IMG/VR virus record: IMGVR_UViG_3300043444_000400
Location: 7,061 to 71,060 of that record
DNA length: 64,000 nucleotides
Direction: 5' to 3' (one strand)
Origin: a virus
The notes below the pieces were generated by a model. The model was not told the origin of the DNA. It did not search any database and saw only the letters and a list, made by a program, of their open reading frames with translations. Both the position numbers and the translations under genes were made by a program. Each line of letters starts with the position of its first letter. Positions within the stretch are counted from its first letter, which is position 1. Below, piece after piece: positions 2,792 through 4,715 of this stretch.

Positions 2792-3151
2792 ATGATAACT
2801 ATAACTTTTAAGTCTTTACAAGATGAATTCCCTAAACCAGGAGATGAAATAGCGTATATTACAAGTGAAGGGGGAATAACTAGTATAAGATTTTCTGAAG
2901 TCGTAATGTACTGGATGAAAGAAGAAGGGAATTGTATAGAGTATATAGATGAAGAGTGTGAAGGGTATACTCCGTTAACATTTCTTTCTGATGGAGAATG
3001 TCTAGACAATTACTTACTTGAGGGTGAGACTGATTTGTTCTATTGGACATATTTTAAGGAGTATTATGAAACAACGAAAGAAATATATGGAAAGGAACCT
3101 GAACCATATGATTATCTTAGAAGATTGCTATTTGACCCAATAGTAAAGTAA
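2792..3151 (+). CDS. hypothetical protein
   Basis: ORF track. Confidence 0.65.
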   Translation: MITITFKSLQDEFPKPGDEIAYITSEGGITSIRFSEVVMYWMKEEGNCIEYIDEECEGYTPLTFLSDGECLDNYLLEGETDLFYWTYFKEYYETTKEIYGKEPEPYDYLRRLLFDPIVK

Positions 3152-3188
3152 TATAAAGTTGTCCAGTAGTAAAGTAATATAAAGTTGT
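3141..3188 (+). repeat. 22-bp perfect direct repeat upstream of the tmRNA locus
   Basis: TAGTAAAGTAATATAAAGTTGT at 3141-3162 and 3167-3188; followed by inverted repeat TATAAGTA/TACTTATA (3193-3220). Confidence 0.85.
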
Positions 3189-3230
3189 TGGGTATAAGTA
3201 CACAGTCTTGTATACTTATATTTACGATAT

Positions 3231-3292
3231 GGTACTAAAAAGTATTAATGGAGTTAGCAAAGACAGCGGTTCAACTCCGCTCACCTCCACCA
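3231..3292 (+). ncRNA. ssrA: two-piece (permuted) tmRNA, acceptor piece
   Basis: GAC-A-GCGG-TTCAACT-CCGC-T-CACCTCC-A-CCA: T-arm plus 3' acceptor strand with encoded CCA; its 5' part (GGTAC, AGTATT, TTAGCAAA) pairs with the coding piece. 5' end approximate. Confidence 0.88.
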
Positions 3293-3385
3293 GGGGCAGT
3301 AGCTCAATTGGTAGAGCGAGAAGCTTATACCTTCTGTATGCACCAGATTAGTGCGCGGTTGTGGGTTCGAGTCCCTCCTGCCCTA
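3293..3385 (+). tRNA. trnI: tRNA-Ile(UAU) with long variable arm, forming the tmRNA intervening segment
   Basis: GGGGCAG/CTGCCCT acceptor, GCTC/GAGC D stem, AGAAG-CTTATAC-CTTCT anticodon arm (TAT 3326-3328), 25-nt V region, GTGGG-TTCGAGT-CCCTC T arm, discriminator A. Confidence 0.9.
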
Positions 3386-3389
3386 CCTT

Positions 3390-3600
3390 GGGGGTGTCCT
3401 GGTATCGATTTGTTAATGAAGTGAAATACTGTACCCGGTCTAGAGTCCAGGACCGACCCTATGTATATACTACATAGGTGAAGAAGGACAAAATCGTGTA
3501 AATGCGAATCAAATCAAACCTTTTGCTCGTAAGACCTCTCTTGCTGTAGCATAATCATTGAACTGGGGTAGCTCATAAGGGTTACCCTAGTTCTTCTTTT
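3390..3600 (+). ncRNA. ssrA: two-piece (permuted) tmRNA, coding piece
   Basis: 5' GGGGGTG-TCCTGGTATCGA pairs with CACCTCC giving G3.U70 (Ala identity); pk1-like pairings CGGTCT/GGACCG and GTCC/GGAC; tag frame after TAAAT; ends at terminator. Confidence 0.9.
3504..3554 (+). other. tmRNA proteolysis tag reading frame ANQIKPFARKTSLAVA*
   Basis: Resume codon GCG preceded by TAAAT; resembles cyanobacterial ANNIVxFARK...AA tags. Confidence 0.88.
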
Positions 3601-3601
3601 T
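3560..3601 (+). terminator. Rho-independent terminator ending the tmRNA transcript
   Basis: GAACTGGGGTAGCTC-ATAA-GGGTTACCCTAGTTC followed by TTCTTTTT. Confidence 0.85.
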
Positions 3602-3621
3602 GCTGTCATTTGGATTGTCTT

Positions 3622-3789
3622 ATGTTGGATCTTGCTTCGATTGGACAACTAGTTCGCCAACTATCTTTTGTTTATGCTGTATTTATGGCCTGTGACAGTA
3701 CCTATAAAAAGAATATTCATGCACAGATTTTTTTCTGTTCTATGGCCATAGTTATTCAACTACAACTTATTTTCGTTGGATTACGCTAA
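3622..3789 (+). CDS. small hydrophobic (membrane) protein, 55 aa
   Basis: Manual translation MLDLASIGQLVRQLSFVYAVFMAC...AIVIQLQLIFVGLR. Confidence 0.45.
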   Translation: MLDLASIGQLVRQLSFVYAVFMACDSTYKKNIHAQIFFCSMAIVIQLQLIFVGLR

Positions 3790-3932
3790 TGATGGACTTA
3801 TCTTTTTGGACTTATCTGGGTATAACTTGTTCTCTCTTTAATGCCTTAATTGACTTTGACCGTGAGAATTACTCGTGGTCTCTCTTCTGGGTTGTTTGGA
3901 CTATCTTGCTAGGAGTGAACAATTTGTATTAA
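3789..3932 (+). CDS. small hydrophobic (membrane) protein, 47 aa
   Basis: TAATG coupling; MMDLSFWTYLGITCSLFNAL...WSLFWVVWTILLGVNNLY. Confidence 0.45.
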   Translation: MMDLSFWTYLGITCSLFNALIDFDRENYSWSLFWVVWTILLGVNNLY

Positions 3933-4012
3933 AATGCTGTATAATTAACAGCAACACCTGTGAAAATCAGGTGTATATGCCCTGGTAGCTCAGTGGATAG
4001 AGCAATCGCCTT

Positions 4013-4657
4013 TGCAAAAACACCTAAGTAAGCTATAATTAACTTAGTTTATAAGGTGAACAAATGGAGCCTATTTGTTGGAAGGTTGAGAAGATTGTAA
4101 GTAAAGGTGACTATAACTATGCTGTGGTAAAAGGACACCCAAAAGCTAATAAGCTAGGGTATATTTTAGAACACAGAGTAGTTATGGAGAATCATCTTGG
4201 TAGACTTCTTAACTCTGATGAGGTTGTTCATCATATCAATCATGATAGAAAGGACAACAGGGTTGAAAACTTGGAAGTTATGACCGCAAAACAGCATCAA
4301 CTGCTACATGGAAAAGAGATAGGTAGGAAATACTGTCACTTAAAATGCCCTGAATGTGGTGTTGAATTTTGTAAAGAAATTAGAGATACTTTCTTACAAA
4401 AAGGGGGCAGGTTTACTACTTGTTCGGCAAAGTGTAGAGGAAAACTTTCAAGAAAAATCCAACTCGGAAGAGAAACTCAAATAGTGGAAGCCGCCATATC
4501 GGAGAACATCCTTGCTATTTTCAAAAGATACAAGGGCAACTCCGAGGTAACTGTCTTACAACAGGAACCGTAGAGACTATACGCGGCTCACCTGAAATGG
4601 TGAAGAAATAGTCCAGCCTACAACTCGAAAGAGGTCATAGTAATATGATGTGGGATG
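4013..4657 (+). mobile_element. group I intron carrying an HNH homing endonuclease
   Basis: Exon ends in U, intron ends in G; P3 GCCGC(4490)/GCGGC(4583), P4 TCGGAG/CTCCGA, P5 CCTTG/CAAGG, P7 GACTA(4575)/TAGTC(4609), P8 TCACC/GGTGA. Confidence 0.88.
4064..4573 (+). CDS. HNH homing endonuclease with C-terminal Zn finger
   Basis: EHRVVME...VVHHINHDRKDNRVENL HNH motif; CPEC...CSAKC. Confidence 0.9.
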   Translation: MEPICWKVEKIVSKGDYNYAVVKGHPKANKLGYILEHRVVMENHLGRLLNSDEVVHHINHDRKDNRVENLEVMTAKQHQLLHGKEIGRKYCHLKCPECGVEFCKEIRDTFLQKGGRFTTCSAKCRGKLSRKIQLGRETQIVEAAISENILAIFKRYKGNSEVTVLQQEP

Positions 4658-4715
4658 CTAAGCGATCGGTCGCAGGTTCGAGTCCTGCCCAGGGCGCTAA
4701 CTTTAGAGGTTAATA

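What the first reader, a model, noticed from the sequence alone, without database searches (positions are those of the whole stretch)
3231..3600. Circularly permuted phage tmRNA whose intervening sequence is a complete tRNA gene
Seen: the tmRNA 3' part (T-arm, CACCTCC-A-CCA ending at 3292) comes first. tRNA-Ile(UAU) starts at the very next base (3293-3385). After a 4-nt spacer the tmRNA 5' part starts (GGGGGTG at 3390), followed by pk1, the tag ANQIKPFARKTSLAVA and a terminator. The two pieces pair through the acceptor stem (with G3.U70) and helix 2 (GGTAC/GTACC, AGTATT/AATACT, TTAGCAAA/TTTGTTAA). Known: two-piece tmRNAs occur in alpha-proteobacteria, some beta-proteobacteria and picocyanobacteria, with short disposable intervening segments. 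Inference: one RNase P cut at the tRNA 5' end would also liberate the mature CCA end of the tmRNA acceptor piece, so tRNA maturation does the tmRNA processing and one transcript yields both RNAs. I am not aware of this nested architecture having been described.
Basis: partly seen in the sequence, partly recalled or inferred. Interest (0 to 1): 0.9.

Follow-up and report, generated by a model that had tools for sequence, protein, structure and literature searches.

The report
tRNA nested inside phage two-piece tmRNA
An uncultured freshwater phage carries its ribosome-rescue RNA (tmRNA) as a rearranged two-piece gene, and the spacer that is normally cut out holds a complete isoleucine tRNA gene; this layout recurs in other cyanophage-like contigs but has been mentioned only once in print.

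Summary
ARAGORN calls a permuted tmRNA with tRNA-Ile(UAU) inside it. Rfam RF04321 scores 83.6 bits against a cut-off of 47, and RF00005 scores 57.7 bits for the tRNA.

A 1105-nt contig from another study spans the whole unit. It shows no listed change in 3228-3457 but dense changes upstream, and its terminator changes keep the pairing.

The layout is not unique. Pattern scans found nine more IMG/VR loci with tRNA-Tyr or tRNA-Asn in the spacer of cyano-type tmRNAs. Their closest cultured counterparts (S-SSM7, S-CAM1, Sf-FS3) have a 5-nt spacer and no tRNA.

One 2025 paper calls a tRNA-Ala case "unique". This scan also noted the nesting earlier on other DNA.

Only this window has CCA directly abutting tRNA base 1, so the single-cut idea is a special case. 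It remains untested. Verdict: real, probably functional, a new variant of a known kind, of moderate interest.

The parts
3217..3222 (+). TATATT, a possible -10 box about 8 nt upstream of the first paired base of the acceptor piece
   Evidence: Read from the sequence. It is unchanged in the X3 variant, while 3202-3213 carries indels and 3226/3227 differ. The consensus scan did not list it. Related loci have TATATA at a similar distance. This is inference only.
3231..3292 (+). tmRNA acceptor piece (62 nt): helix-2 5' strands, T-arm 3265-3281, acceptor 3' strand 3282-3288 with T3286 as U70, discriminator A3289, encoded CCA 3290-3292
   Evidence: RF04321 alignment, ARAGORN, cofold. No listed change in the X3 variant.
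3293..3385 (+). tRNA-Ile(UAU), 93 nt, anticodon 3326-3328, 25-nt variable region, G1.U72, A73, no complete CCA encoded
   Evidence: RF00005 at 57.7 bits, ARAGORN. The body is 96-97% identical to free-standing tRNA-Ile of two Kyanoviridae. The acceptor stem is exchanged with pairing kept.
3386..3389 (+). 4-nt spacer CCTT between tRNA A73 and tmRNA G1
   Evidence: Sequence. Spacers of 4-5 nt sit at the same place in all nine other nested loci.
3390..3602 (+). tmRNA coding piece: acceptor 5' strand 3390-3396 (G3392 = G3), helix-2 3' strands 3409-3435, pk1 hairpin 3436-3455, extra hairpin 3458-3478, tag ORF 3504-3551 (ANQIKPFARKTSLAVA) with TAA at 3552-3554, terminator hairpin 3560-3593 with T-run
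   Evidence: RF04321 alignment, ARAGORN tag, cofold and fold, terminator scan. Variant changes in the terminator hairpin keep the pairing. An X6 contig replaces 3626-3791 with 26 other letters, so the unit ends by 3625.

Best explanation
Window 3231-3602 is one transcription unit of an uncultured freshwater phage, probably a cyanophage. It encodes three RNAs in the order tmRNA acceptor piece, tRNA-Ile(UAU), tmRNA coding piece.

The precursor folds so that the tmRNA acceptor stem and helix 2 close around the tRNA cloverleaf. Host RNase P cuts at 3292/3293 (the tRNA 5' end) and at 3389/3390 (the tmRNA 5' end). The first cut leaves the 62-nt acceptor piece ending in CCA-3'OH. The second cut releases the roughly 210-nt coding piece and a tRNA with a CCUU trailer, which host 3' enzymes finish.

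The two tmRNA pieces stay paired. They are charged by host AlaRS through G3.U70 and, with host SmpB, rescue stalled ribosomes, adding A-NQIKPFARKTSLAVA. The tRNA reads AUA codons.

What is shown: the sequence, the model matches, the folds, conservation in an independent sample, and recurrence of the layout. What is inferred: the promoter, co-transcription, both cuts, charging, tagging and the benefit to the phage.
For: ARAGORN and Rfam both call the RNAs. The canonical tRNA-like domain is the minimum-energy cofold, z about -3. The sequence carries G3.U70, A73 and CCA, a tag with a cyanobacterial-style start and a hydrophobic end, and a terminator.

Selection: a 1105-nt contig of run X3, from another study, spans 3053-3899 with 22 listed substitution places. 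None falls in 3228-3457. Twelve fall in 3088-3227, together with all 12 listed indels. By my arithmetic, no hit in 230 of 847 nt has a chance of about 1e-3.

In the terminator hairpin, 3561 A>G pairs with 3592 T>C, 3588 T>C turns G.U into G-C, 3585 C>T turns G-C into G.U, and in X6 3565 G>A turns G.U into A-U. An 80-nt X6 contig is identical across 3263-3342, bridging the CCA/tRNA joint.

The tRNA acceptor stem differs from its Kyanoviridae homologues at 5 of 7 pairs, all still paired. ATA makes up 83 of 659 Ile codons in 23 long ORFs.

Nine other IMG/VR loci have a tRNA (Tyr or Asn) in the same slot of tmRNAs that score 100-163 bits on RF01851, or 67 bits on RF04321 for the truncated L275. 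So a tRNA in the slot is compatible with an intact tmRNA gene.
Against: There is no RNA evidence: the runs laid were DNA contigs, which cannot show ends or expression. The consensus scan did not list a promoter at this site.

RF01851 cyano_tmRNA did not reach its cut-off here. The best clan model was RF01850 at 49.4 bits against 84. So the tmRNA is divergent, only 57-61% identical to the Kyanoviridae types.

The tag ends in AVA rather than the usual AA. One low-depth 202-nt X9 contig follows 3236-3385 and then runs into unrelated sequence after the tRNA. That could be a variant without the coding piece, or an assembly chimera.

No SmpB or CCA-adding enzyme lies in the 71-kb record, which is about 53% complete, so all cofactors must come from an unknown host. 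The 25-nt variable region is unusual for tRNA-Ile, so which amino acid it carries is not settled.
Confidence: 0.72

Rival explanations
1. The genes are real, but the exact CCA/tRNA abutment has no special role. It reflects the tight packing of phage tRNA arrays. The acceptor piece 3' end is made by the usual host route (endonuclease, exonuclease trimming, CCA repair), as in relatives without an encoded CCA.
For: In the nine other nested loci, 1-5 nt separate the discriminator or CCA from the tRNA, and 8 of 9 encode no CCA. Cultured relatives manage with a 5-nt spacer and no CCA. Zero-spacer tRNA neighbours are common in these phages: DSL-LC02 has Asn/Val and Ile/Met pairs, and G001 has Asp/Tyr/Thr.
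Against: RNase P cuts at +1 of any pre-tRNA (established knowledge), so the cut at 3292/3293 should occur anyway and would give the CCA end. The joint is identical in two other studies' contigs.
Confidence: 0.3
2. The tmRNA is a decaying or non-rescuing relic. Its pieces may serve only as flanks of a useful tRNA, or act as a decoy for host SmpB or AlaRS rather than as a tagging RNA.
For: Divergent sequence, with RF01851 not reached. The tag end is unusual. The X9 contig appears to leave the unit after the tRNA. A CDS-less phage tmRNA that inhibits host tmRNA is cited in PMC11915505 (passage).
Against: There is a full-length RF04321 match with only two non-standard pairs flagged. The tag frame is intact with a stop. 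No change is listed in the tRNA-like domain or in the tag (3504-3554) in the X3 variant, and the terminator changes are compensatory.
Confidence: 0.12
3. The call is a false positive: a tRNA flanked by chance tRNA-like fragments.
For: ARAGORN makes false tmRNA calls next to tRNAs, for example in L150, L213, L247 and L251.
Against: Infernal E 1.6e-14 over the whole model. Both halves, the tag and the terminator lie in the right order. The pattern gives 0 of 100 shuffles. The unit is conserved against its flanks.
Confidence: 0.02

Closest known systems
Permuted tmRNA 'GCA-2688965 sp002688965.2' with an intact tRNA-Ala in its intervening sequence (PMC11915505, passages read)
   Same: A complete, high-scoring tRNA gene lies between the acceptor and coding pieces of a permuted tmRNA gene.
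   Different: Different tRNA (Ala, not Ile). It was found in a nominally archaeal MAG that the authors suspect of misbinning, and they called it a unique feature. I could not fetch it: two genome contigs pattern scans did not find it. So its spacers and CCA status are unknown to me. The paper's supplements were closed.
Nested tRNA-Tyr / tRNA-Asn in cyano-type tmRNAs of IMG/VR contigs (L194/L249, L261-L264, L268, L271, L274, L275)
   Same: Same order of parts, the same 4-5 nt spacer before tmRNA G1, and a phage setting next to tRNA genes.
   Different: Different tRNAs. The tmRNAs are only 57-61% identical to the window's. CCA is absent or followed by an extra A, and 1-5 nt lie before the tRNA. 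They match RF01851, which the window does not.
Two-piece tmRNAs of cultured Kyanoviridae: S-SSM7, S-SSM6a, S-CAM1, S-CAM3, Sf-FS3, AG-345-P14
   Same: Phage-borne permuted tmRNA beside tRNA genes, with an ANNIV-type tag core.
   Different: The spacer is only 5 nt (CTCAG or CTCAT) in the three I examined (S-SSM7, Sf-FS3, S-CAM1), with no tRNA inside and no CCA encoded. None of the 16 GenBank records shows an ~85-nt insert. In the three records I opened (S-SSM7, Sf-FS3, S-CAM1) no tmRNA is annotated; in S-SSM7 and S-CAM1 hypothetical proteins are annotated over it.
Two-piece tmRNAs of marine myophages such as OM43 phage Melnitz and pelagimyophages (PMC9004378, passages read)
   Same: Phage-encoded permuted ssrA. 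That paper counts 53 two-piece forms among 133 unique phage tmRNAs, mostly from marine or aquatic phages.
   Different: They are of the alphaproteobacterial type. A glutamine riboswitch is described there, and no tRNA in the spacer is mentioned in the passages I read. Table S1 was not visible to me.
Bacterial two-piece tmRNA (Caulobacter; Keiler, Shapiro and Williams 2000; Sharkady and Williams 2004). Recalled; neither paper is held.
   Same: One precursor is cut by tRNA-processing enzymes into an acceptor piece and a coding piece held together by pairing (wording from PMC11915505).
   Different: The spacer there is discarded and encodes no RNA.

Membership tests
Permuted (two-piece) tmRNA, Rfam RF04321 | Covariance-model score at or above the gathering cut-off over the full model | tested here: met
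   83.6 bits against 47, model positions 1-213, E 1.6e-14
Permuted (two-piece) tmRNA, Rfam RF04321 | Gene order is acceptor (3') piece, then intervening segment, then coding (5') piece, with the two pieces pairing through the acceptor stem and helix 2 | tested here: met
   Alignment. The cofold gives this structure as its minimum, -34.3 against -23.7 (sd 3.5) for shuffles.
Permuted (two-piece) tmRNA, Rfam RF04321 | Alanine identity: G3.U70, discriminator A, CCA end | tested here: met
   G3392 opposite T3286, A3289, CCA 3290-3292. Actual charging is not testable here.
Permuted (two-piece) tmRNA, Rfam RF04321 | Tag reading frame that starts at an Ala resume codon and ends in a hydrophobic tail plus stop | tested here: met
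   GCG at 3504 through TAA at 3552-3554, ANQIKPFARKTSLAVA. The tail is AVA rather than AA.
Permuted (two-piece) tmRNA, Rfam RF04321 | Mature two-piece RNA, SmpB-dependent trans-translation | not testable with these tools
   No RNA reads were laid, and no SmpB lies in the record.
Cyanobacterial tmRNA, Rfam RF01851 | Model score at or above 70 bits | tested here: not met
   Not listed for the window at gathering or at E up to 10. The best model in the clan was RF01850 at 49.4 bits against 84. The nested Kyanoviridae-type loci score 100-163 bits. I therefore file the window only under the generic permuted form.
tRNA, Rfam RF00005 (isoleucine, anticodon UAU) | Cloverleaf with a score above the cut-off | tested here: met
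   57.7 bits against 29. ARAGORN calls tRNA-Ile(tat).
tRNA, Rfam RF00005 (isoleucine, anticodon UAU) | Isoleucine identity (charged by IleRS) | tested here: inconclusive
   Anticodon UAU and A73 fit. The 25-nt variable region resembles class II tRNAs, and the acceptor stem differs between homologues. Charging was not testable.
tmRNA gene with a tRNA nested in the intervening segment | A complete tRNA gene lies between the tmRNA discriminator/CCA and tmRNA G1, on the same strand | tested here: met
   3293-3385 lies between 3292 and 3390. The same holds in nine IMG/VR loci.

The most novel reading that the evidence does not exclude
The spacer of permuted phage tmRNA genes is a selected slot for tRNAs and tRNA-like cloverleaves. 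These act as built-in processing handles, a form of tRNA punctuation, and are gained, lost and exchanged repeatedly. The window would be the extreme form: one RNase P cut at tRNA +1 delivers a ready CCA-3'OH acceptor piece, so the phage tmRNA needs neither host 3' trimming nor CCA addition.

Support: three tRNA species in at least four tmRNA lineages, each nested form having a closer non-nested counterpart. Cloverleaf-like spacers with a T-arm and a 10-13 bp closing stem occur in alpha- and beta-type phage tmRNAs. That last set was picked by a pattern that demanded a T-loop, so it is biased.
Probability: 0.35. Interest if true: 0.7.

Novelty: new variant of a known kind. Interest (0 to 1): 0.55.

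Why it matters
Two-piece tmRNA genes were thought to carry a throw-away spacer. Here the spacer is a working gene slot, so one short transcript gives a ribosome-rescue RNA and a decoding tRNA, and tRNA maturation is tied to tmRNA maturation.

The layout recurs in cyanophage-like contigs with different tRNAs, yet the closest cultured phages lack it. These pairs with and without the tRNA offer a natural experiment on how RNase P and the 3' enzymes define tmRNA ends.

There is also a practical point. tmRNA pipelines reject calls that overlap a tRNA (PMC11915505 describes such a filter, with an exception for strong permuted hits). In the three GenBank cyanophage records I opened no tmRNA is annotated, and in two of them hypothetical proteins are annotated over it. 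So such genes are easily missed.

Tried and rejected
Close relatives of the window's tmRNA were sought in several ways.
- An exact 25-mer of the acceptor end gave 0 hits in viral contigs.
- A degenerate tag pattern gave 0.
- A 19-mer of the coding-piece start gave 0 in viral contigs. It gave 3 unrelated hits in metagenome contigs: two with no RNA gene and one standard tmRNA.
- A 28-mer of the tRNA start gave 0.
- blastn against GenBank phages matched only the tRNA body.
So the only relatives I saw are Logan contigs, which I could not fetch as loci.

Among 38 other permuted tmRNAs called in the first set and 7 in the second, ARAGORN found no tRNA in the spacer. L194 was in the second set but was missed there, because the stored locus stopped inside the tmRNA. 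It was recognised only.

The strict nested pattern found 0 in genome contigs. The relaxed one found 3, none a nested tmRNA:
- L253 is a tRNA array with a 66-nt tmRNA-like element.
- L254 and L255 have no tmRNA.
The published tRNA-Ala case was therefore not recovered, and the pattern's demands (two T-loops, TCCA, GGGG-N6-TGG-NN-TCGA) limit what 'none in bacteria' can mean.

Of 24 viral hits of the relaxed pattern, 9 are truly nested. Five have tRNA-like spacers (L246, L247, L248, L257, L266). Seven are a tRNA-Ala followed by a short permuted tmRNA. L256 and L259 are a standard tmRNA after tRNAs. L265 is a tRNA-Ala before a short-spacer tmRNA.

Neighbour synteny led nowhere. PHROGs gave nothing for 7 of 8 flanking ORFs and HNH for the eighth. 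The upstream 119-aa ORF has two homologues, but their contigs could not be fetched. The PolA is only 26-27% identical to Nodularia phages, so the host remains a guess.

X9 covers both flanks but shows no contig over 3410-3511, and one contig leaves after 3385. I draw no conclusion from the missing cover. I did not follow up the repeat at about 3133-3190.

Supplements of PMC11915505 and PMC9004378 were closed. They may list further nested cases.

Full report
What is there. The window is part of a 71-kb IMG/VR virus record, about 53% complete. ARAGORN reports a permuted tmRNA at 3200-3645 whose tag ends ANQIKPFARKTSLAVA*. Inside it lies tRNA-Ile(tat) at 3293-3387. Infernal against Rfam 15 gives RF04321 tmRNA_permuted at 3231-3554: 83.6 bits, gathering 47, E 1.6e-14, full model. 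It gives RF00005 tRNA at 3293-3385 at 57.7 bits.

Read from the sequence:
- T-arm 3265-3281
- acceptor 3' strand CACCTCC 3282-3288
- discriminator A3289 and CCA 3290-3292
- tRNA G1 at 3293, anticodon TAT at 3326-3328, A73 at 3385
- spacer CCTT 3386-3389
- GGGGGTG 3390-3396, with G3392 opposite T3286
- tag ORF 3504-3551 with TAA at 3552-3554
- a 15-pair hairpin at 3560-3593 followed by a T-run

The cofold of the acceptor piece with the first 47 nt of the coding piece gives the canonical tRNA-like domain as its minimum. Energy is -34.3 kcal/mol against -23.7 (sd 3.5) in 300 shuffles, of which 3 reach it.

Is it under selection? No close relative exists in IMG/VR, the JGI metagenome contigs or GenBank phages. 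However, public runs from at least four other studies, mostly freshwater, hold parts of the stretch. I laid the contigs of four runs.
- A 1105-nt X3 contig spans 3053-3899. Its 22 listed substitution places include 12 in 3088-3227, with all 12 listed indels there too. None falls in 3228-3457, which holds the acceptor piece, the tRNA, the spacer, the tRNA-like domain and the pk1 stem. None falls in the tag either.
- Its four changes in the terminator hairpin all keep the pairing. One is a double change (3561 A>G with 3592 T>C). A fifth change, in X6, turns G.U into A-U.
- An 80-nt X6 contig is identical over 3263-3342, across the CCA/tRNA joint.
- An X8 contig covers 3361-3599. That gives 29 letters on the tRNA side of 3389/3390, just under the tool's 31-letter rule for bridging.
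- An X6 contig replaces 3626-3791 with 26 other letters, which bounds the unit on the right.
- Against this, a 202-nt, depth-3 X9 contig follows 3236-3385 and then continues into unrelated sequence. I cannot tell a variant from a chimera.

The tRNA. Its body is 96-97% identical to free-standing, 93-95-nt tRNA-Ile genes of two Kyanoviridae, SynMITS9220M01 and the freshwater DSL-LC02. Its acceptor stem is different: GGGGCAG/CTGCCCT against GGAAGTG/CACTTCC. Five of seven pairs changed, and all remain paired. That argues for a working tRNA and for exchange between tRNA genes. All copies share a 25-nt variable region, which is unusual for tRNA-Ile. First-stage notes on this and other genomes say the same. 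ATA accounts for 83 of 659 Ile codons in 23 long ORFs.

The phage. GC is about 0.35. The flanking ORFs have no PHROG match apart from an HNH nuclease. The PolA is 26-27% identical to Nodularia siphophages. No SmpB or CCA-adding enzyme lies in the record. The cyanobacterial-style tag, the shared tRNA and the freshwater runs suggest a cyanophage, but this is inference.

Is the layout unique? No. A pattern for T-arm, TCCA, a second T-loop 50-80 nt on, then GGGG-N6-TGG-NN-TCGA hits the window once and none of 100 shuffles. In IMG/VR it hit 24 loci (a stricter form hit 4).

ARAGORN and Rfam show nine of these to be cyano-type permuted tmRNAs with a tRNA in the spacer. They score 100-163 bits on RF01851, or 67 bits on RF04321 for the truncated L275.
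- tRNA-Asn in L194/L249 and in L262.
- tRNA-Tyr in L261, L264, L268 and L275, which are identical over the stretches I printed.
- tRNA-Tyr in L263, L271 and L274.

Their junctions differ:
- L194 has CCA, then A, then the tRNA.
- The Tyr loci have A73, then TC or TT, then the tRNA.
- L262 has A73, then TTCCT, then the tRNA.
- All nine keep 4-5 nt before tmRNA G1.
Only the window has an encoded CCA directly against tRNA +1.

Cultured Kyanoviridae carry the same tmRNA type with a 5-nt spacer, no tRNA and no CCA. In the three records I opened no tmRNA is annotated; in two of them hypothetical proteins are annotated over it. Among 16 GenBank records with this type, none shows an ~85-nt insert.

Each nested tmRNA is closer to a non-nested cultured one than to other nested ones:
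- G001 to S-SSM7: 87%
- L261 to S-CAM1: 91%
- L271 and L274 to Sf-FS3: 86-87%
- L261 to L271: 74%
So the tRNA has been gained or lost several times. The window's tmRNA is only 57-61% identical to all of them, which makes it a separate lineage.

In 185,579 species genomes the patterns found no nested tmRNA. The patterns are narrow, and they also failed to recover the published case.

Prior knowledge. PMC11915505 (passages) defines the permuted form as cut by tRNA-processing enzymes. It reports, as a unique feature, an intact tRNA-Ala in the intervening sequence of one nominally archaeal MAG's tmRNA. PMC9004378 (passages) counts 53 two-piece forms among 133 unique phage tmRNAs, mostly from marine or aquatic phages. 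Full-text searches found no other description of a tRNA in the spacer: 'permuted tmRNA' plus phage; tmRNA plus cyanophage plus two-piece; tmRNA plus intervening plus 'tRNA gene' plus permuted; and 'two-piece tmRNA', 'RNase P', intervening. Earlier agents of this scan noted the same nesting on other DNA, with Glu, Tyr/Asn/Asp and one other tRNA. I reached my set before reading those notes.

Mechanism. The best reading is one transcript from about 3229-3231 (TATATT at 3217-3222 is inferred as the -10 box) to the terminator at about 3600. RNase P would cut at 3292/3293 and at 3389/3390. Because RNase P leaves a 3'-OH on the leader, the first cut would leave the acceptor piece ending in CCA. The tRNA keeps a CCUU trailer for host 3' enzymes. 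This is established enzyme behaviour applied to this sequence and is not shown here.

Verdict. This is a real, conserved, probably functional two-piece phage tmRNA gene with a tRNA in its spacer. It is a new variant of a known kind, with one printed precedent and a recurrent but undescribed distribution in uncultured cyanophage-like contigs.

Noticed in passing
window 3979-4697: ARAGORN with introns allowed finds a split tRNA with a 645-nt insert in the anticodon loop. The insert holds the HNH endonuclease ORF (4064-4573). A first-stage note (e1-6184533) reads it as tRNA-Arg(UCU) with a group I intron. Rfam listed no intron family at gathering. ARAGORN's Ser(gct) label depends on where it places the intron.
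   Followed up: partly
window 3293-3385; L002 2995-3087; L003 2995-3087: The tRNA(UAU) family has a conserved 25-nt variable region with a GCAC/GTGC stem, a class II-like feature on an Ile anticodon. Its amino-acid identity is untested.
   Followed up: partly
L246 5905-6003, L248 5233-5330, L257 1127-1219, L266 245-340: The spacers of alpha- and beta-type permuted phage tmRNAs fold as cloverleaf-like elements with a 10-13 bp closing stem and a GGTTCGA T-arm (z -4.7, -1.1, -3.3, -2.7). ARAGORN at a relaxed threshold calls three of the four tRNA-like. They were picked by a pattern that requires a T-loop, so their frequency is unknown.
   Followed up: partly
L250 1179-1481 (S-SSM7), L251 1121-1410 (Sf-FS3), L252 1128-1396 (S-CAM1): Cultured Kyanoviridae genomes carry cyano-type two-piece tmRNA genes (RF01851, 109-143 bits) with a 5-nt spacer. 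No tmRNA is annotated in these GenBank records; in S-SSM7 and S-CAM1 hypothetical proteins are annotated over it.
   Followed up: yes
L253 6308-6373 and surroundings: A contig of a MAG labelled Candidatus Iainarchaeum holds a long tRNA array, a 66-nt tmRNA-like element without a coding part (RF00023, 75 bits) and a ROOL RNA (298 bits). It looks like phage or bacterial DNA binned with an archaeon.
   Followed up: no
L258, L260, L267, L269, L270, L272, L273: In seven IMG/VR contigs, a tRNA-Ala is followed about 45 nt later by a very short (152-156 nt) permuted tmRNA match (RF04321, 59-64 bits) that ARAGORN does not call.
   Followed up: no
window 3124-3213: A repeated stretch upstream of the tmRNA (about 3133-3190, seen by eye) is where the X3 variant has nearly all its indels.
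   Followed up: no
window 3236-3385 (X9 contig): A low-depth contig from another study follows the acceptor piece and the tRNA, then leaves the window's sequence right after the tRNA discriminator and enters a stretch with a ribosome-binding site and an ATG. It is either a variant lacking the coding piece or an assembly chimera.
   Followed up: no
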